From: a virus
Lineage: Duplodnaviria; Heunggongvirae; Uroviricota; Caudoviricetes
Virus record (IMG/VR): IMGVR_UViG_3300029181_000054
DNA length: 5,772 nucleotides
Strand: one strand, 5' to 3'
Shown here: one piece after another, positions 1 to 5,772 of the stretch
Numbering within the stretch: the stretch's first letter is position 1
Layout of the letters: each line of letters begins with the position of its first letter
Position numbers and translations under genes: made by a program
Notes under the pieces: generated by a model
Database searches by the model: none
What the model was told of the DNA's origin: nothing
What the model saw: the letters and a program-made list of their open reading frames with translations, nothing else

Positions 1-76
1 CTGCACCTGGGCCATGTAAGCCGATTTTATTGCCTCGAAACCACCGAGCCGGAATTTCATGAAATCCCGGGAGGTA
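1..76 (-). pseudogene. exo: 3' remnant of lambda-type exonuclease gene (exo, Red-alpha); 5' portion deleted, continues beyond window start
   Basis: Reverse complement of 1-75 reads in one frame as [25 protein letters not shown], which matches an internal to C-terminal stretch of lambda Exo as I recall it (about residue 135 onward of 226). The expected exo start is present as ATG at 78-80 overlapping the bet stop (ATGA), but it is followed by only six codons (MIPPGIS) then TGA at 57-59, and is out of frame with the remnant. An in-frame ATG at 58-60 could at most give a C-terminal fragment. Confidence 0.75.
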
Positions 77-862
77 TCATGCTGCCACCTTCTGCTCAGT
101 GGCTTTCTGTTTCAGGAATCCAAGAGCTTTCACTGCTTCGGCCTGTGTCAGTTCTGACGATGCGCGAATGTCGCGGCGAAATATCTGGGAACAGAGCGGC
201 AATAAGTCGTCATCCCATGTTTTATCCAGGGCAATCAGCAGAGTGTTAATCTCCTGCATGGTTTCATCGTTAACCGGAGTGATGTCGCGTTCCGGCTGAC
301 GTTCTGCAGTGTATGCGGTATTTTCGACAATGCGCTCGGCTTCATCCTTGTCATAGATACCAGCAAATCCGAAGGCGAGACGGGCACACTGAATCATGGC
401 TTTATGCCGTAACATCCGTTTGGGATGCGACTGCCACGGCCCCGTGATTTCTCTGCCTTCGCGGGTTTTGAATGGTTCGCGGCGGCATTCATCCATCCAT
501 TCGGTAACGCAGATCGGATGATTACGGTCCTTGCGGTAAATCCGGCATGTACAGGATTCGTTGTCCTGCTCAAAGTCCATGCCATCAAACTGCTGGTTTT
601 CATTGATGATGCGGGACCAGCCATCAACGCCCACCACCGGAACGATGCCGTTCTGCTTATCAGGGAAGGCGTAAATTTCTTTCGTCCACGGATTAAGGCC
701 GTACTGGTTGGCGACGATCAGCAATGCGATGAACTGCGCATCGCTGGCATCACCTTTAAATGCCGTCTGGCGAAGAGTGGTGATCAGTTCCTGTGGGTCG
801 ACAGAATCCATGCCGACACGTTCAGCCAGCTTCCCTGCCAGCGTTGCGAGTGCTGTACTCAT
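77..862 (-). CDS. bet: Bet (Red-beta) single-strand annealing recombinase
   Basis: 261-aa ORF whose sequence ([82 protein letters not shown]...) matches lambda Bet essentially over its full length from memory. Five-nt gap to gam stop, as in lambda. Confidence 0.97.
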
Positions 863-867
863 CCGTT

Positions 868-1164
868 TTATACCTCTGAATCAATATCAACCTGGTGGTG
901 AGCAATGGTTTCAACCATGTACCGGATGTGTTCTGCCATGCGCTCCTGAAACTCAACATCGTCATCAAACGCACGGGTAATGGCTTTTTTGCTGGCCCCG
1001 TGGCGTTGCAAATGATCGATGCATAGCGATTCAAACAGGTGCTGGGGCAGGCCTTTTTCCATGTCGTCTGCCAGTTCTGCCTCTTTCTCTTCACGGGCGA
1101 TCTGCTGGTAGTGACGCGCCCAGCTCTGAGCCTCAAGACGATCCTGAATGTAATAAGCGTTCAT
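868..1164 (-). CDS. gam: Gam, RecBCD inhibitor (98-aa GamS-length form)
   Basis: 98-aa [24 protein letters not shown]...[10 protein letters not shown] matches lambda Gam from memory. AGGAG Shine-Dalgarno (window 1170-1174 complement) 5 nt upstream of ATG 1162-1164. The in-frame upstream extension has no Met and reaches a stop after about 19 codons, so only the short form can be made. Confidence 0.95.
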
Positions 1165-1239
1165 GGCTGAACTCCTGAAAATGGCTGTGAAAATATCGCC
1201 CGCGAAATGCCAGGCTGATTAGGAAAACAGGAAAGGGGA

Positions 1240-1530
1240 TTAGTGATTGAGGCCGTTACCGCGTCCGTCGAGAAAAACTTCCACGAGCAAATCACGGGTA
1301 TAAGTGCGCTCGATGCCGCGATGCAGATAAAGCCGTCCGCGTAAATTAGCTGATGCAGTCCAGGTACCATCTTTGTGTTTGACCAGCATTCCTGGCATGA
1401 CCGCACCGCGATTAACGGTCTGCGTTCCGTAATGTTGATGAACCATAAAAACTCCTGCCCGTAAGCTGGGCTGCTGAACATATAGAGACTTCTGCGCGTA
1501 TTCAGGCGGTGGATGGCCGCCGGTTGTCAT
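1240..1530 (-). CDS. Hypothetical small protein, first ORF of the putative pL operon (N/kil position); start uncertain
   Basis: Open frame 1240-1650 on the minus strand. Candidate starts: ATG 1444-1446 with a strong AGGAG Shine-Dalgarno 5 nt upstream (68 aa, [35 protein letters not shown]...); ATG 1528-1530 with a weaker GAGG-type site (96 aa); TTG 1648-1650 or GTG 1615-1617, which would add an arginine-rich N-terminus (RGVKRTRERR). No family recognised. Confidence 0.45.
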
Positions 1531-1668
1531 AACTAAGCCGCCTCGTTGAAGCGACTGAGGTATAAAGTGTTGTGTTGATTTCAGCTGGTCACACCGACGT
1601 TCACGCGTCCGTTTCACCCCTCGCACTCCCCGAAGCCTGCTGAAATTCAAACTGCGGATCTAAGCGGT

Positions 1669-1718
1669 CATCGCAACGGTGAAACAGGTGGTTACCGTAT
1701 CGTTGTGTCGTTGCGATG
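1669..1718 (-). other. Perfect 10-bp inverted repeat (CATCGCAACG / CGTTGCGATG) with 30-nt spacer in the putative pL leader; potential RNA hairpin or protein binding site
   Basis: Window 1669-1678 CATCGCAACG and 1709-1718 CGTTGCGATG are exact reverse complements. The element begins right after the predicted pL start and ends just before the in-frame stop that opens the downstream ORF. Confidence 0.4.
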
Positions 1719-1721
1719 AAT

Positions 1722-1800
1722 TTATTTAAAACTATAGTTGTTTTATCGTCAACAACAAAAGTTGTTTTATCGGTTGTTTTAAATATAACTGGTTGTATTT
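1722..1800 (-). promoter_or_regulatory. Candidate OL operator cluster and pL promoter (leftward)
   Basis: GTTGTT motifs at 1737-1742, 1761-1766, 1773-1778 (and GGTTGTA 1791-1797), plus an inverted AACAAC at 1751-1756 forming GTTGTT-N8-AACAAC; the same half-site forms the palindrome between cI and cro. Minus-strand -35 TTGACG (window 1747-1752), 17-nt spacer, -10 TTAAAT (window 1724-1729). Confidence 0.45.
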
Positions 1801-1890
1801 AGGATGGATTTATTTTGTGACTTGCATCGCATAGCGATAACTGAAGTGAGGTGTGGTGGTTTTTTGGACGGTATGAGTTATGAGGGGGAG

Positions 1891-1919
1891 GAAAAGAAAA
1901 CCCGGCGCGGTTGCCGGGT
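1891..1919 (-). terminator. Intrinsic (rho-independent) terminator downstream of the lipoprotein gene
   Basis: On the minus strand: GC-rich stem CCCGGC / GCCGGG (window 1901-1906 and 1913-1918) with a 6-nt loop, followed by TTTTCTTTTC. Starts 8 nt after the lipoprotein stop codon (1927-1929). Confidence 0.7.
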
Positions 1920-1926
1920 ATGATTA

Positions 1927-2307
1927 TCAGTCAGCCCAACCTGATTTCGAGTTTATTTGGGTTTCTGACATTGTGTATTTCTTAATCGTGTCATCGTTAA
2001 AAAGAATAGTAAGTTCTTTTTTCGTACCGTTCGTTCCATTATGGAATAATCCATAGAATGGAATAAAAGTGGTGCCATTAACTTTTACTTTTGCAAAGGC
2101 GTACTTCCAGATCTCCTTTCCACTGTCAGTATATGAAACAGCATCAGGAGAACCAAAGTAAGATTTAACCTCATTCTTGGTTGTTTTACCTTCCCGAAGT
2201 TTAGACTGGACACTAATTTCAGTTTCATTTTTGAGTTGCTGGTTGCCTGAAGAAGCACACCCAGCCAATACAGATGCCATCATGGCAGCGATTAGGATTT
2301 TTCTCAT
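1927..2307 (-). CDS. Small secreted lipoprotein (126 aa), AT-rich moron in the rexAB position; function unknown
   Basis: N-terminus MRKILIAAMMASVLAGCASS has a positively charged n-region, a hydrophobic core and a canonical lipobox LAGC (Cys17), with Ala at +2. The mature part has a pattern (SKLREGKTTKNEVKSYFGSPDAV ... LTILFNDDTIKKY) loosely reminiscent of BamE/SmpA-OmlA-type small lipoproteins; this is my recollection, not a search result. Sampled 60-nt segments are about one third GC, against more than half in bet. Confidence 0.85.
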   Translation of the reverse strand: MRKILIAAMMASVLAGCASSGNQQLKNETEISVQSKLREGKTTKNEVKSYFGSPDAVSYTDSGKEIWKYAFAKVKVNGTTFIPFYGLFHNGTNGTKKELTILFNDDTIKKYTMSETQINSKSGWAD

Positions 2308-2536
2308 TTTATGTTTCCATTCATTATAATCAGAAACATCTTAACATAATGATTCGAAATAAAAACCGCTACGAGATAGGGGGACATTTTGCTGACAGTA
2401 GCAACAAATCTCAGCTAACAACGAGAATATTTACTGAAATATGCAAACAGATTTGGCGTTCTTATAGAGAATTTAGTGCAATATCTAATCCGAGTGGTAT
2501 AAACCTTAACCTTCGCTCCCTTAAGTCGTAGATAAA

Positions 2537-3226
2537 TTAACCATGCTTCCTGTACGTCTGCGGCATGCTTCCAATGACCTTACCGAATATGAACACCCGG
2601 TTCATCTCGTCTTTCTCGATCGGGTCCCACGGCGAGTAGCTCTTGTTATCAGAGATAACCAGCAGCTTATCCTTCATCATTTGAAGACGTTTTACATGGG
2701 CAGTGTCGTCGTACAGAAACGCATAGATGCCATCACCGTCGAAAGATTTAACAGTGATATCAACGAACAGCAGGTCACCTGGTTCGATCGTCCCTGACAT
2801 GCTGTCACCTCGCACGTTAATGATGCGGATATTTTCCGCCTTCCTGCCATCGAACATGTGACGAGCATCGTCAAACGAGTACTCAACCGAGCGTAGAACT
2901 TCTACAAACTCACGGTTGATTACACCTGGCCCGGCACTGACTTCTATATCAAGAACGTCAATTTTGAAGTATTTGGAATGGCTGACAGTTGATTGTATTG
3001 GTTGCACTGTACTGTCTGACATATTTCCAACGCCAGAAGATAACCATTCTGCGCGCACACCCAAAGCGTTCGCGATCTCCACGATTTTAGTTGTTTGGTT
3101 AGCTTTCCCTGTTTCGATTTTCTGAATAGCAGCCTGGCTAACCCCGACCAAATCCCCAAGCGCCTTTTGTGTAAGGCCTCGCGCTAATCTGGCTTCTTTA
3201 AGTCTTTCTGAGAGTGTTGTTTTCAT
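2537..3226 (-). CDS. cI: CI-type prophage repressor: N-terminal XRE/Cro-CI helix-turn-helix and C-terminal S24 (LexA-like) autopeptidase domain
   Basis: 229 aa. N-terminal LTQKALGDLVGVSQAAIQKIETGK is a typical HTH. C-terminal RGDSMSGTIEPGDLLFVD (catalytic Ser) and VKRL (catalytic Lys) are S24 motifs, with a candidate Ala-Gly cleavage site in VSAGPG. Divergent from a cro-like gene across a 104-bp operator region. Not lambda cI. Confidence 0.93.
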   Translation of the reverse strand: MKTTLSERLKEARLARGLTQKALGDLVGVSQAAIQKIETGKANQTTKIVEIANALGVRAEWLSSGVGNMSDSTVQPIQSTVSHSKYFKIDVLDIEVSAGPGVINREFVEVLRSVEYSFDDARHMFDGRKAENIRIINVRGDSMSGTIEPGDLLFVDITVKSFDGDGIYAFLYDDTAHVKRLQMMKDKLLVISDNKSYSPWDPIEKDEMNRVFIFGKVIGSMPQTYRKHG

Positions 3227-3330
3227 AGATCAAATGTACAACCAAGGTTTTATTTCATCAAACGAAAATGGTTGTTGACTAAAAACAACCATAGTTTTAA
3301 TCTTGATTCGGATTAACCACGGAGGTTGTT
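3227..3330. promoter_or_regulatory. OR region: divergent pRM / pR promoters with palindromic operator(s)
   Basis: Perfect 25-bp palindrome ATGGTTGTT-gactaaa-AACAACCAT at 3268-3292 overlapping a plus-strand -35 TTGACT (3275-3280), with -10 TAATCT (3298-3303) and GGAGG Shine-Dalgarno at 3321-3325 before cro ATG 3331. A second, weaker site around 3236-3253 (ACAACC, palindrome AACCAAGGTT 3240-3249). Candidate minus-strand pRM: -35 TTGATG (window 3256-3261), -10 TACATT (window 3233-3238), which places the start at about the cI ATG (leaderless, as for lambda pRM). Confidence 0.55.
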
Positions 3331-3561
3331 ATGAACCCAGCAATCAAAACAGCGATCAATATCGTTGGTTCACAAAAGAAACTAGGCGATGCCTGCGAAG
3401 TTTCACAGCAGGCCGTCTATAAGTGGCTTCACAACAAAGCAAAGGTATCCCCTGAACATGTCGGCAGCATTGTTACGGCTACTGGTGGAGTTGTGAAGGC
3501 ATACCAGATTCGCCCGGATCTTCCGAAGTTGTTTCCACACACCGAAAAGAACGCAGCTTAA
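3331..3561 (+). CDS. cro: Cro-like HTH regulator of the YdaS family
   Basis: 76 aa, first gene rightward of the operator region, strong GGAGG Shine-Dalgarno. AIKTAINIVGSQKKLGDACEVSQQAVYKWL ... IRPDLPKLFP resembles my recollection of E. coli Rac YdaS (AIELAGGSQSALARLLGVSRQAVHQW ... RPDLW). Confidence 0.85.
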   Translation: MNPAIKTAINIVGSQKKLGDACEVSQQAVYKWLHNKAKVSPEHVGSIVTATGGVVKAYQIRPDLPKLFPHTEKNAA

Positions 3562-3573
3562 ATTTCCATTTCA

Positions 3574-3586
3574 CGCTCTTTAACAA
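3574..3586 (+). promoter_or_regulatory. boxA antitermination element (nutR-like position, immediately downstream of cro)
   Basis: CGCTCTTTAACAA at 3574-3586 matches the consensus boxA (rrn-type GCTCTTTAACAA; lambda nut boxA CGCTCTTA) and sits 13 nt after the cro stop, where nutR lies in lambda. No boxB-like hairpin is evident downstream. Confidence 0.55.
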
Positions 3587-3630
3587 TAAGCAATCAACTT
3601 AACAGTCAATTCAAACTAAAGGAGTCAATT

Positions 3631-4170
3631 ATGCAACCACTTACATACCAACAGACTAGCGGATTTATTCCGACTGCGGTGATAAATCGTTCTCAAACAA
3701 AACAAGCTCCAGGCCACGAAAAAATCCGTGATGCCGTCCGCGCCTGGTCGGCTGTAGATAATCAGGATGTCGTTGCCGCACTCATTGTGAATGAGTATCG
3801 GGAGCAGGGCGACGGCACCATCGATTTCCCTGATGATGTCAGCCGTGCACGCCAGAAGCTGTTCCGCTTCCTCGATAACAAATTCGATTCTGAAAAATAC
3901 CGAAATAACGTGCGTGAACTGACCCCGGCAATTCTGGCGGTACTACCGCTGGAATATCGCGGTTACCTGGTTGAGCAGGATAGCTTCATGACTCGGTTGG
4001 CTGAAATGGAAAAGGAACTCAGTGAGGCAAAACAGGCTGTCATTCTCAACGCACCACGCCACCAGAAACTGAAGGAAATGAGTGAAGGTATTGTGTCGAT
4101 GTTTCGTGTGGACCCGGATCTGGCTGGTCCATTAATGGCGATGGTGACCACCATGCTGGGGGCAATATGA
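3631..4170 (+). CDS. YdaT-family protein (CII-position regulator of YdaS/YdaT-type immunity regions)
   Basis: 179 aa with an AAGGAG Shine-Dalgarno. VAALIVNEYREQGDG and LTPAILAVLPLEYRGYL parallel VANAITEEYLRQGGG and LIPAILAILPRELR of E. coli Rac YdaT as I recall it. Sits between the cro-like gene and O, where cII lies in lambda. Its stop overlaps an upstream ATG in the O frame (ATGA at 4167-4170). Confidence 0.8.
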   Translation: MQPLTYQQTSGFIPTAVINRSQTKQAPGHEKIRDAVRAWSAVDNQDVVAALIVNEYREQGDGTIDFPDDVSRARQKLFRFLDNKFDSEKYRNNVRELTPAILAVLPLEYRGYLVEQDSFMTRLAEMEKELSEAKQAVILNAPRHQKLKEMSEGIVSMFRVDPDLAGPLMAMVTTMLGAI

Positions 4171-4256
4171 CAGGTTCAGAAATGGCGAAAGTCGGTCTGC
4201 GGGAACAGAACCGACTTTCAGGTGCAAATCGTAACACACTCATTGCGGGAGGAATT

Positions 4257-5186
4257 ATGGCAAACACTGCTGAGATATTCAATTTTCCAGTGCCGGATGC
4301 GGCACAAAAGGAGCCGCGCGTGGCAGATCTCGATGATGGTTATACGCGCATTGCAAATGAGTTGCTGGAAGCTGTGATGCTGGCCGGATTAACACAGCAC
4401 CAGCTTCTGGTCTTCCTGGCTGTCATGCGCAAAACATATGGCTTTAATAAAAAACTGGATTGGGTGAGCAACGAGCAACTTTCCGAGTTGACCGGGATAT
4501 TGCCGCACAAGTGTTCTGCTGCAAAAAGTGTTCTGGTAAAGCGTGGGATTTTTATTCAGAGCGGGCGGAATATCGGCATTAATAATGTGGTCAGTGAATG
4601 GTCAACATTACCCGAATCAGGTAAGAAAAATAAAGTTTACCTGAAAGAGGTAAATTTACCTGAATCAGGTAAGAAAAGTTTACCCAAATCAGGTAAAGGC
4701 ACTTACCCGAATCAGGTAAACACAAAAGACAAACTAACAAAAGACAATATAAAACCTTTTTCGTCCGAGAATTCTGGCGAATCCTCTGACCAACCAGAAA
4801 ACGATCTTCCTGTGGAGAAACCAGATGCTGCAATTCAGAGCGGCAGCAGGTGGGGGACAGCAGAAGACCTGACCGCCGCAGAGTGGATGTTTGACATGGT
4901 GAAGACCATCGCGCCATCAGCCAGAAAACCGAATTTTGCAGGGTGGGCTAACGATATCCGCCTGATGCGTGAACGTGACGGACGTAACCACCGCGACATG
5001 TGCGTGCTGTTCCGCTGGGCATGCCAGGACAACTTCTGGTCCGGTAACGTGCTGAGTCCGGCCAAACTCCGCGACAAGTGGACCCAGCTCGAAATCAACC
5101 GAAACAAGCAACAGGCTGGCGTGACAGCCGGCAAACCAAAACTCGACCTGACGAACACTGACTGGATTTACGGGGTGGATTTATGA
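4257..5186 (+). CDS. O: Replication initiator O (origin-binding protein), chimeric: non-lambda N-terminal region, lambda-like C-terminal region
   Basis: Start chosen at ATG 4257-4259 (GGGAGG Shine-Dalgarno 4245-4250) because MANTAEIFNF...VADLDDGYTRIANELLEA aligns with the lambda O N-terminus MTNTAKILNF...VADLDDGYARL. The open frame extends upstream to ATG 4167, an alternative start 30 codons longer. The C-terminal part (SGSRWGTAEDLTAAEWMFDMVKTIAPSARKPNFAGWANDIRLMRERDGRNHRDMCVLFRWACQDNFWSGNVLSPAKLRDKWTQLEINRNKQQAGVTAGKPKLDLTNTDWIYGVDL) is near-identical to lambda O from memory. The stop overlaps the P start (ATGA). Confidence 0.92.
   Translation: MANTAEIFNFPVPDAAQKEPRVADLDDGYTRIANELLEAVMLAGLTQHQLLVFLAVMRKTYGFNKKLDWVSNEQLSELTGILPHKCSAAKSVLVKRGIFIQSGRNIGINNVVSEWSTLPESGKKNKVYLKEVNLPESGKKSLPKSGKGTYPNQVNTKDKLTKDNIKPFSSENSGESSDQPENDLPVEKPDAAIQSGSRWGTAEDLTAAEWMFDMVKTIAPSARKPNFAGWANDIRLMRERDGRNHRDMCVLFRWACQDNFWSGNVLSPAKLRDKWTQLEINRNKQQAGVTAGKPKLDLTNTDWIYGVDL
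4608..4720 (+). repeat. ori iterons inside the O gene: five copies (one degenerate) of a 16-bp dyad-symmetric core TACC(C/T)(G/A)AATCAGGTAA
   Basis: Cores at 4609-4624 (TACCCGAATCAGGTAA), 4638-4653 (TACCTGAAAGAGGTAA, two mismatches), 4657-4672 (TACCTGAATCAGGTAA, a perfect palindrome), 4681-4696 (TACCCAAATCAGGTAA) and 4704-4719 (TACCCGAATCAGGTAA), at 19-29 bp spacing. They translate as the repetitive LPESGKK linker of O. Confidence 0.85.
4721..4765. other. AT-rich (A-rich) region flanking the iterons; putative DNA-unwinding part of the phage origin
   Basis: CACAAAAGACAAACTAACAAAAGACAATATAAAACCTTTTT lies directly right of the last iteron. Lambda ori has the same layout of iterons followed by an AT-rich segment within O. 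Confidence 0.6.
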
Positions 5187-5772
5187 AAAACATCGCCGCA
5201 CAGATGGTTAACTTTGACCGTGAGCAGATGCGCCGGATCGCCAACAATATGCCGGAACAGTACGACGAAAAGCCGCAGGTACAGCAGGTAGCGCAGATCA
5301 TCAACGGTGTGTTCAGCCAGTTACTGGCAACTTTCCCGGCGAGCCTGGCTAACCGTGACCAGAATGAACTGAACGAAATCCGCCGCCAGTGGGTTCTGGC
5401 TTTCCGGGAAAACGGGATCACCACAATGGAACAGGTTAACGCTGGAATGCGCGTAGCCCGTCGGCAGAATCGACCATTCCTGCCATCACCCGGGCAGTTT
5501 GTCGCCTGGTGCCGGGAAGAAGCATCTGTTAACGCCGGGCTGCCAAACGTCAGCGAGCTGGTTGATATGGTTTACGAGTATTGCCGGAAGCGTGGCCTGT
5601 ATCCGGATGCAGAGTCTTATCCGTGGAAATCGAACGCGCATTACTGGTTGGTTACCAACTTGTACCAGAACATGCGGGCCAATGCGCTGGCTGACGCGGA
5701 ATTACGGCGCAAGGCTGCCGATGAACTGACCTGTATGACAGCGCGAATTAACCGTGGTGAGACGATACCTGA
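5183..5772 (+). CDS. P: Replication protein P (DnaB helicase loader), 5' partial; continues beyond window end
   Basis: ATG 5183-5185 overlaps the O stop. Translation MKNIAAQMVNFDREQMRRIANNMPEQYDEKPQVQQVAQIINGVFSQLLATFPASLANRDQNE... matches lambda P from memory. No stop codon before the window ends; the six-frame track omits it for that reason. Confidence 0.95.
   Translation, partial: MKNIAAQMVNFDREQMRRIANNMPEQYDEKPQVQQVAQIINGVFSQLLATFPASLANRDQNELNEIRRQWVLAFRENGITTMEQVNAGMRVARRQNRPFLPSPGQFVAWCREEASVNAGLPNVSELVDMVYEYCRKRGLYPDAESYPWKSNAHYWLVTNLYQNMRANALADAELRRKAADELTCMTARINRGETIP

What the first reader, a model, noticed from the sequence alone, without database searches (positions are those of the whole stretch)
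4257..5186. Chimeric O protein: novel origin-binding N-terminal domain and iterons, lambda-identical P-interaction C-terminus
Seen: the N-terminal part of O and the five iterons embedded in it are clearly different from lambda (iteron core TACCYRAATCAGGTAA), while from about SGSRWGTAEDL to the end the protein is lambda O as I recall it, and is followed by lambda-type P. Established: O binds the ori iterons through its N-terminal domain and recruits P through its C-terminal domain. Inference: a recombination breakpoint in the linker region (around 4780-4850) created an initiator with a distinct origin specificity that still couples to lambda P.
Basis: partly seen in the sequence, partly recalled or inferred. 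Interest (0 to 1): 0.45.

Follow-up and report, generated by a model that had tools for sequence, protein, structure and literature searches.

The report
Common mosaic lambdoid O replication gene
This is an ordinary lambdoid-phage replication initiator gene (O) that carries its own set of five origin repeats but shares its rear half and its partner gene P with phage lambda; the same gene sits in about 44% of complete E. coli genomes, so it is a textbook example of phage gene mosaicism rather than a novelty.

Summary
ORF 4257-5186 is a lambda-family O protein (Pfam Phage_rep_O, E 7.6e-34). It contains five 17-bp palindromic iterons (TTACC-N7-GGTAA; 0 expected by chance), then a 41-bp AT-rich box. 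Against lambda, its first 503 nt are 52% identical with saturated synonymous sites (pS 0.78). The last 427 nt are 95% identical (dS 0.175 to lambda over codons 191-309, 0.0 to phage SfI). P follows, 190/196 aa identical to lambda P.

The gene is a recombinational mosaic, and its origin specificity is very probably different from lambda's. The breakpoint is at 4757-4768, at the right edge of the AT-rich origin element, not at 4780-4850. The rear half is 97% identical to lambda, not identical.

It is not novel. The whole gene occurs at 95% identity or more in 2368 of 5426 complete E. coli genomes and in 15 sequenced phages. The same N-domain plus iteron module occurs in ten other Enterobacterales species, joined to unrelated C-termini and followed by P-type, DnaC-type or Toprim-containing genes. 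The two-domain logic of O was established with lambda-phi80 and lambda-82 hybrids in 1978. Binding of this O to these iterons is inferred, not shown. Interest is low.

The parts
4257..5186 (+). O gene, replication initiator, 309 aa
   Evidence: ORF; Pfam Phage_rep_O E 7.6e-34; start supported by GGAGG at 4248-4252, the lambda alignment and PGAP annotation of the 99.9% identical E. coli copy
4317..4601 (+). Coding region of the type-specific origin-binding domain (aa 21-115), including the conserved LPHKCSAAKS motif
   Evidence: Pfam match to residues 21-115; 48% aa identity to lambda with pS 0.78; 67-85% identity and an unchanged LPHKCSAAKS motif in 9 of the 10 species-representative genomes carrying the same iterons, Kluyvera having LSHKCSAAKS
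4608..4624 (.). Iteron 1, TTACCCGAATCAGGTAA; extra copy with no counterpart in lambda's four-iteron array
   Evidence: falls in the 30-nt insertion relative to lambda; degenerate in the Klebsiella copies
4637..4653 (.). Iteron 2, TTACCTGAAAGAGGTAA (divergent centre)
4656..4672 (.). Iteron 3, TTACCTGAATCAGGTAA
4680..4696 (.). Iteron 4, TTACCCAAATCAGGTAA
4703..4719 (.). Iteron 5, TTACCCGAATCAGGTAA; aligns with lambda iteron 4 (39102-39118)
4720..4760 (.). AT-rich element (75.6% A+T): ACACAAAAGACAAACTAACAAAAGACAATATAAAACCTTTT; presumed unwinding region and the sequence patch shared by all O types compared
   Evidence: composition; CACAAAAGA...ACAAAAGA invariant in all 7 aligned phage origins; 2 of 30 columns vary between E. 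coli and Klebsiella copies
4757..4768 (.). Mosaic junction: 2-lnL support interval of the identity change point against lambda-type O genes
   Evidence: best after 4759; 52% identity to the left, 95% to the right against lambda; 2*dlnL 246. It corresponds to lambda 39156-39167, which contains the two misc_recomb features of the lambda records
4761..5186 (+). Coding region of the lambda-type C-terminal (P-binding) part of O
   Evidence: 95.3% nt identity to lambda and 98.6% to SfI; 4 aa differences from lambda in the 141 residues from aa 169 to the end
5183..5772 (+). P gene (helicase loader), 5' 196 codons; runs off the window. ATG overlaps the O stop (ATGA)
   Evidence: Pfam Phage_lambda_P E 7.7e-61; 190/196 aa identical to lambda P

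Best explanation
The region is the replication module of a lambdoid phage or prophage that is 99.2% identical over the window to Escherichia phage PhiR26_1.

Gene O encodes a two-domain initiator. Its N-terminal Phage_rep_O domain is inferred to bind, as dimers, the five palindromic iterons (TTACC-N7-GGTAA) that lie inside the gene's own linker-coding stretch. Binding is inferred to bend the DNA and open the adjacent AT-rich element. The C-terminal domain, about 97% identical to lambda O, is inferred to recruit the lambda-type P protein and with it host DnaB.

The gene is a natural mosaic. The module 'N-domain + iterons + AT-rich box' (4257 to about 4750) and the module 'C-domain + P' (about 4760 onward) have different evolutionary histories. 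They are joined at the right edge of the AT-rich box, a sequence conserved in all O types compared, which can serve as the homology patch for exchange.

Shown here: domain family, iteron anatomy, the discontinuity in divergence, independent assortment of the modules, and prevalence. Inferred: actual O-iteron binding, non-cross-reactivity with lambda's origin, and P recruitment.
For: - Family: Pfam Phage_rep_O and Phage_lambda_P.
- Origin anatomy: five iterons, 0 expected by chance. Start-to-start spacing of the last four is 19, 24, 23, against lambda's 20, 24, 23. An invariant CACAAAAGA...ACAAAAGA box follows the last iteron in lambda, 933W, P22, SEN34, GZ7, PhiR12_1 and the window.
- Selection on the DNA rather than the peptide: the iterons are read in two reading frames (LPESGK three times; YLKEV and YPNQV). 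Between E. coli and Klebsiella copies the arms vary in 2/50 columns, the centres in 9/35, the spacers in 11/27 and the AT-rich box in 2/30.
- Iteron arms co-vary with the N-domain across types: lambda TCCCTC/GAGGGA, window TTACC/GGTAA, SEN34 TTAGC/GCTAA, PhiR12_1 TGTCAC/GTGACA.
- All 10 species-representative genomes with TTACC-type iterons have the matching N-domain (67-85% identity); LPHKCSAAKS is unchanged in 9 of them.
- Two histories: pS 0.78 against dS 0.175 to lambda and 0.0 to SfI; change point 4757-4768.
- Independent assortment: the same N/iteron module carries unrelated C-termini and is followed by a P-family gene, a DnaC/IstB AAA+ gene or a Toprim-containing gene. The lambda-type C-terminus with P occurs behind three other N-types.
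- Viability: PhiR26_1, identical over 4257-4826 (codons 1-190), is deposited as a complete phage genome with K-12 MG1655 written as host.
- Literature: N-terminal region binds DNA, C-terminal region binds P, flexible linker between (PMC6022878); iterons plus AT-rich opening (PMC5043065); O-type proteins vary with origin specificity (PMC8022706).
Against: - No experiment on this O protein or these iterons was found; the iteron string occurs in no searchable paper.
- No solved structure is related by sequence, and the single-sequence model was unusable (pLDDT 41.8). The DNA-contacting residues are therefore guessed.
- Coupling of C-domain type to partner type is not one-to-one. In Arsenophonus and Klebsiella phage KO-TP1, a P-family gene follows an O whose C-terminus is not lambda-like.
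- In Stx phages with six iterons only four are bound efficiently (PMC7466680), so not all five copies here need be functional.
- This copy's neighbouring exo gene carries a 393-bp deletion, so this prophage copy may be defective.
Confidence: 0.9

Rival explanations
1. No recombination. One continuously inherited gene in which the N-domain and iterons diversify quickly by co-evolution, while the C-terminus is frozen by the need to fit P.
For: N-domains and iterons do co-vary across types, and the C-terminus shows strong purifying selection (pN 0.007).
Against: Selection on the protein does not explain the synonymous sites: pS 0.78 in front against 0.156 (lambda) and 0.0 (SfI) behind. The change occurs within about 12 bp. 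The same front half is attached to unrelated rear halves, and the same rear half to four front types.
Confidence: 0.03
2. The five repeats are only a repetitive peptide linker (LPESGKK...) and not an origin; the real origin lies elsewhere.
For: The repeats lie in coding sequence and give a repetitive, low-complexity peptide. No binding data exist.
Against: Copies are read in two different frames, so the repeat is maintained at the DNA level. Each copy is a palindrome. Position, spacing and the following AT-rich box match ori-lambda base for base. The palindrome arms are far better conserved than the spacers. Copy number varies from 3 to 9 while the arms stay the same.
Confidence: 0.04
3. A recent, rare or laboratory hybrid: a lambda derivative that picked up a foreign origin-recognition segment, as the reader's word 'created' suggests.
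For: The junction interval (lambda 39156-39167) contains the two misc_recomb features of the lambda records at 39157^39158 and 39165^39166. From memory, unverified, these mark crossovers of laboratory lambda hybrids.
Against: The exact combination is in 2368 of 5426 complete E. coli genomes from many hosts and countries, with 95-100% identity, and in 15 independently isolated phages. The cI, cro and YdaT-like genes to the left are also non-lambda.
Confidence: 0.02

Closest known systems
Phage lambda O protein and ori-lambda
   Same: Same Pfam family. The origin lies inside the gene between the two domains. Palindromic iterons have the same phasing (19/24/23 against 20/24/23) and the same AT-rich box follows. 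The C-terminal 141 residues are 97% identical. The gene is followed by a P protein 97% identical to lambda's.
   Different: The N-domain is only 48% identical. Iteron arms are TTACC/GGTAA instead of TCCCTC/GAGGGA. There are five iterons instead of four, from a 30-nt insertion carrying iteron 1.
[quoted passage not shown] 1979)
   Same: The same concept: a type-specific N-terminal half with its own origin, fused to a common C-terminal half that works with lambda P (cited in PMC6022878 and PMC4488673).
   Different: Those were made in the laboratory; this is a natural and very common allele. I could not check whether phage 82 or phi80 carry this iteron type, because those papers are not held. 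No phi80 or 82 record appeared among the 22 phage records with this N-type.
Salmonella phage P22 gene 18 protein and its origin
   Same: The closest classical relative of the N-domain: 64.6% aa identity over residues 19-117. Its four iterons are related (TTTACC..GGTAAA) and are followed by the same AT-rich box.
   Different: The iteron centre is about 2 nt shorter and the copies are more degenerate. The C-terminus is unrelated and the partner is gp12, a DnaB-type helicase, not P.
Stx phage 933W O protein (six iterons)
   Same: A lambda-type C-terminus and P, with more than four iterons arising by insertion on the left side of the array.
   Different: 933W keeps lambda's N-domain and lambda's iteron sequence. 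It is a copy-number variant, not a different specificity type (PMC7466680).
O proteins of Klebsiella phages GZ7, 6 LV-2017 and ST11-VIM1phi8.2
   Same: The same N-domain (79-83% aa identity), the same five TTACC-type iterons at identical offsets, and the same AT-rich box.
   Different: Beyond window position about 4750 the C-terminus is unrelated. The next gene is a DnaC/IstB-type AAA+ loader instead of P.

Membership tests
Lambda O-type replication initiators (Pfam PF04492 Phage_rep_O) | N-terminal Phage_rep_O domain above the curated threshold | tested here: met
   116.6 bits against a cutoff of 28.7; residues 21-115 cover profile positions 1-95 of 95
Lambda O-type replication initiators (Pfam PF04492 Phage_rep_O) | Array of palindromic iterons inside the O coding sequence, followed on the right by an AT-rich region | tested here: met
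   Five iterons at 4608-4719, then 75.6% A+T at 4720-4760; the array aligns column for column with ori-lambda
Lambda O-type replication initiators (Pfam PF04492 Phage_rep_O) | Sequence-specific binding of O to its iterons and origin-dependent replication | not testable with these tools
   Only indirect support: arms conserved (2/50 variable columns) and co-occurrence with the matching N-domain in 10 of 10 other species
Lambda O/P helicase-loading pair | C-terminal domain homologous to lambda O's P-binding part | tested here: met
   98.3% aa identity over codons 191-309; 4 differences in the 141 residues from aa 169 to the end
Lambda O/P helicase-loading pair | A lambda-P-family gene immediately downstream, translationally coupled | tested here: met
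   ATGA overlap at 5183-5186; Pfam Phage_lambda_P E 7.7e-61; 190/196 aa identical to lambda P
rep-lambda origin-specificity type (lambda, 434, 21, SfI, 933W) | Iterons of the ATCCCTCAAAACGAGGGA type with the lambda N-domain | tested here: not met
   Arms are TTACC/GGTAA; N-domain 48% identical; no lambda-type iteron in the gene
P22 gene 18 / gene 12 replication type | gp18-type C-terminus with a DnaB-type helicase gene downstream | tested here: not met
   Only the N-domain is similar (59% aa over codons 1-117; 64.6% over residues 19-117). The C-part is 28% identical over a forced alignment, and the next gene is P, not a helicase

The most novel reading that the evidence does not exclude
The TTACC-N7-GGTAA iteron with its LPHKCSAAKS N-domain may be an experimentally uncharacterised replicon-specificity class. 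It would be the commonest O type in E. coli prophages (about 44% of complete genomes) and is spread across at least three families of Enterobacterales. The near-invariant box CACAAAAGAC...ACAAAAGA right of the last iteron may do double duty: as the unwinding element, and as the universal recombination joint that lets origin-recognition modules be combined with P-type, DnaC-type or Toprim-type partners.
Probability: 0.45. Interest if true: 0.3.

Novelty: already known. Interest (0 to 1): 0.1.

Why it matters
It matters little as a discovery. The gene is deposited thousands of times and annotated as replication protein O, and the two-domain, exchangeable design of O has been known since 1978-81.

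Its modest value is practical. It defines the origin and the likely incompatibility or specificity group of a very common E. coli prophage type. It gives a clean natural example of module exchange exactly at a conserved origin element. It also flags that the iterons are not annotated in the records inspected (PhiR26_1 and E. coli D217-5) and that one record uses a start codon 90 nt too far upstream.

Tried and rejected
1. Structure: a single-sequence AlphaFold2 model of O residues 1-128 gave mean pLDDT 41.8 and pTM 0.28. It was too poor for a fold search, so none was run. I ran no further search on an alignment, because the Pfam match already settles the family.
2. A sequence search of the PDB with the whole O protein found nothing at E <= 0.01.
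4. Literature:
   - The iteron strings occur in no searchable paper.
   - 'hy42' occurs in none.
   - Tsurimoto & Matsubara 1981 (PMC326803) is not held (one search was a malformed query).
   - Neither 'ori82' nor 'imm82' occurred in any listed paper.
   - As a result, I could not test my recollection that phage 82 has five iterons, nor identify what the misc_recomb features in the lambda record denote.
5. I looked for an E. coli copy with this N-type and a different C-terminus. The candidate H137 turned out to be an O gene truncated by IS1, not a different module.
6. Considered and rejected:
   - uniform divergence;
   - repeats as a mere peptide repeat;
   - a rare or laboratory hybrid.
7. 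The upstream ATG 4167 as the O start (339 aa, used in the PhiR26_1 record) was rejected in favour of 4257.

Full report
**What is in the window.** The window is the early region of a lambdoid phage. On the minus strand it has the tail of exo, then bet (77-862), gam (868-1164), a kil-like ORF, a lipoprotein ORF and a cI-type repressor (2537-3226). On the plus strand it has cro (3331-3561), a YdaT-domain ORF (3631-4170), O (4257-5186) and the first 196 codons of P (5183 onward). Window positions 73-5772 are 99.2% identical to Escherichia phage PhiR26_1.

**Checking the observation.**
- The ORF from ATG 4257 to the stop at 5184-5186 encodes 309 aa. Residues 21-115 match Pfam Phage_rep_O over the whole profile (E 7.6e-34).
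- GGAGG lies 4 nt before ATG 4257. The lambda alignment starts there too (MANTAEIFNF against MTNTAKILNF), and PGAP uses this start in a 99.9% identical E. coli copy. The PhiR26_1 record uses the upstream in-frame ATG 4167 instead, which I consider too long.
- Five 17-bp repeats, TTACC-N7-GGTAA, start at 4608, 4637, 4656, 4680 and 4703. The degenerate pattern finds exactly these five on the plus strand, against 0.00 expected in 200 shuffles.
- Against lambda O, codons 1-117 are 47.9% identical in protein and the iteron stretch 25%. Codons 191-309 are 98.3% identical.
- The lambda-like protein already begins at SSENSGESSDQPEN (aa 169), not at SGSRWGTAEDL. It differs from lambda at 4 of the 141 residues from there to the end.
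- P is 190/196 aa identical to lambda P.
'Identical' should read '97-98% identical'.

**Is the change sharp, and where?** A two-rate model on the pairwise DNA alignment places the change point after window 4759.
- The 2-lnL support interval is 4757-4768 against lambda (52.1% identity to the left, 95.3% to the right; 2*dlnL 246).
- The best point is the same against 933W, SfI and PhiR12_1.
- Between 4720 and 4759 the sequences are partly alike, because all share the AT-rich box.
- Against Klebsiella phage GZ7, which shares the front of the gene, similarity ends after 4749.
- In lambda coordinates the interval is 39156-39167. It contains the two misc_recomb features of the lambda records at 39157^39158 and 39165^39166. 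The held copies carry no note. My recollection that these are crossover points of laboratory hybrids is unverified.

**Recombination or only different constraint?** Synonymous divergence decides this.
- Against lambda, pS is 0.78 (saturated) in codons 1-117 and 0.156 (dS 0.175) in codons 191-309.
- Against phage SfI the rear part has no synonymous change at all, at 99.7% nt identity.
- Protein-level selection cannot produce that contrast, so the two parts have different histories.

**The repeats are an origin, not just a repetitive peptide.**
1. They sit exactly where lambda's iterons sit. Window 4703-4719 aligns with lambda 39102-39118, essentially lambda iteron 4 (39101-39118).
2. Start-to-start spacing of the last four copies is 19, 24, 23, against 20, 24, 23 in lambda. 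The fifth copy lies in a 30-nt insertion on the left.
3. They are followed by ACACAAAAGACA...ACAAAAGA, which is 75.6% A+T. This box is invariant at its core in lambda, 933W, P22, SEN34, GZ7, PhiR12_1 and the window.
4. The copies are translated in two different frames: LPESGK or LPKSGK at offset 0, and YLKEV or YPNQV at offset 2. What is kept is therefore the DNA.
5. Between the E. coli and Klebsiella copies, the palindrome arms vary in 2 of 50 columns, the centres in 9 of 35, the spacers in 11 of 27 and the AT-rich box in 2 of 30.

**Specificity.** Iteron arms change together with the N-domain across the panel:

| Phage | Iteron arms |
|---|---|
| lambda, 933W | TCCCTC/GAGGGA |
| window, GZ7 | TTACC/GGTAA |
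| SEN34 | TTAGC/GCTAA (a symmetric one-base change in both arms) |
| P22 | related TTTACC/GGTAAA with a shorter centre |
| PhiR12_1 | TGTCAC/GTGACA |

- A scan of one genome per species for two adjacent TTACC-type iterons found ten loci. These were in Pseudocitrobacter, Kluyvera, two Enterobacter, Xenorhabdus, Arsenophonus, Providencia, Klebsiella and two Pantoea.
- In all ten the iterons lie in an O-like ORF whose N-domain is 67-85% identical to the window's.
- The segment LPHKCSAAKS is unchanged in nine of the ten; Kluyvera has LSHKCSAAKS.
- Iteron number ranges from 3 to 9.
- That this segment is the recognition helix is my inference. The only model I made was too poor to use (pLDDT 41.8), and no solved structure is related by sequence.

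**Modules assort independently.**
- The window's N/iteron module is found with at least four unrelated C-termini.
- It is followed by one of three kinds of gene:
  - lambda-P-family genes in the window, Pantoea deserta, Arsenophonus and KO-TP1;
  - DnaC/IstB-type AAA+ genes in the Klebsiella phages, both Enterobacter, Pseudocitrobacter, Kluyvera and Xenorhabdus;
  - a Toprim-domain gene in Providencia.
- Conversely, the lambda-type C-terminus with P follows the lambda, window, PhiR12_1 and SEN34 N-types.
- Coupling of C-terminus to partner is not strictly one-to-one. Arsenophonus and KO-TP1 pair a P-family gene with a non-lambda C-terminus. This slightly weakens inference from C-domain type alone. 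It does not affect the window, where both O(C) and P are about 97% lambda.

**Prevalence and prior knowledge.**
- The full O gene is present at 80% coverage or more in 2368 of 5426 complete E. coli genomes. Almost all of these copies are 95-99% identical, and they include O104:H4 and ST131 strains.
- The N-half with iterons alone is in 2297 genomes.
- The full gene is 97.7-99.2% identical in 15 phage records, where it is named replication protein O.
- The N-type is in 22 phage records, 16 Escherichia and 6 Klebsiella. None is a classical laboratory lambdoid.
- The published picture agrees. The N-terminal region of O binds DNA, the C-terminal region binds P, and a flexible linker joins them; this came from lambda-phi80 and lambda-82 hybrids (PMC6022878; PMC4488673).
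- Iterons plus opening of the AT-rich region are described in PMC5043065. [quoted passage not shown] Stx phages carry six iterons, of which four are bound efficiently (PMC7466680).
- I found no paper that prints this particular iteron. Its binding has therefore, as far as I can see, not been tested.

**Verdict.**
The breakpoint is misplaced and the word 'novel' does not apply.
- This is a standard, very common, already annotated mosaic O allele with its own origin type.
- Most likely mechanism (confidence about 0.9): O dimers bind the TTACC-type iterons through the N-domain and open the adjacent AT-rich box, and the lambda-type C-domain recruits P and DnaB.
- Only the anatomy, the evolutionary discontinuity and the module assortment are shown here. 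Binding, specificity and P recruitment are inferred.

Noticed in passing
window 1-80: The exo gene carries an in-frame 393-bp (131-codon) internal deletion just after its start codon, relative to PhiR26_1 (L002 514-906), lambda (31628-32020) and the E. coli D217-5 prophage. The two alignments overlap by 4 bp at the junction (window 73-76). This copy may be a recombination-defective prophage, or the gap may be an assembly artefact.
   Followed up: partly
window 3631-4170 (+): The ORF in the cII position, annotated 'activator protein cII' in phage records, is a 179-aa YdaT_toxin-domain protein (Pfam E 4.3e-30; PGAP also names it YdaT domain-containing). It is not a lambda-type CII. The cI, cro and YdaT genes together resemble the Rac-prophage type of immunity region; the Rac resemblance is from memory and was not tested.
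   Followed up: partly
window 4167-4256: One phage record (PhiR26_1) starts O at ATG 4167, giving 339 aa and overlapping the YdaT stop as ATGA. PGAP, the lambda alignment and the GGAGG at 4248-4252 all favour ATG 4257 (309 aa).
   Followed up: yes
window 4190-4282 (-): A promoter-like site on the minus strand (TTGAAT-17-CATAAT with an upstream TG; 4282 to 4254) overlaps the O start. Downstream of it lies a strong hairpin at 4190-4222 (the surrounding 101 nt, 4150-4250, fold with z-score -3.0). The position matches lambda's pO/oop antisense RNA. There is no T-run terminator and no Rfam match.
   Followed up: partly
L001 4158-4167 (lambda 39157-39166), equivalent to window 4758-4767: Both lambda records carry two un-noted misc_recomb features inside O. 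They fall exactly in the breakpoint interval found here. What they denote could not be verified.
   Followed up: partly
L017 (Kluyvera sichuanensis; O ORF at 4906-5856 on the reverse complement of the locus): Nine TTACC-type iterons are produced by tandem repetition of a 48-bp two-iteron unit, which repeats the peptide LPESGKKIKPYLKEVN. Other species have 3, 4, 5 or 7 copies, so iteron number is labile within one specificity type.
   Followed up: partly
L021 (Providencia sp. Me31A), downstream of the O-like gene: An O-like protein with TTACC-type iterons is followed about 115 bp later by a Toprim-domain (primase-like) ORF of at least 326 aa, running off the held sequence, instead of a P- or DnaC-type loader.
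   Followed up: no
OM475427.1 (Escherichia phage D2), O region: The O gene is annotated as two CDS. It matches the window's N-type only over the first 83 nt of window 4420-4725, which suggests a rearranged or interrupted origin region in that phage.
   Followed up: no
L015 (E. coli 38A23CPO011), locus 2411-3737: A copy of this O gene is cut off by an IS1 insertion about 50 bp beyond the AT-rich box (the match to the window ends at window 4740; IS1 transposase CDS at locus 3040-3737). The neighbouring bet and cro are also truncated, so this is a decayed prophage.
   Followed up: no
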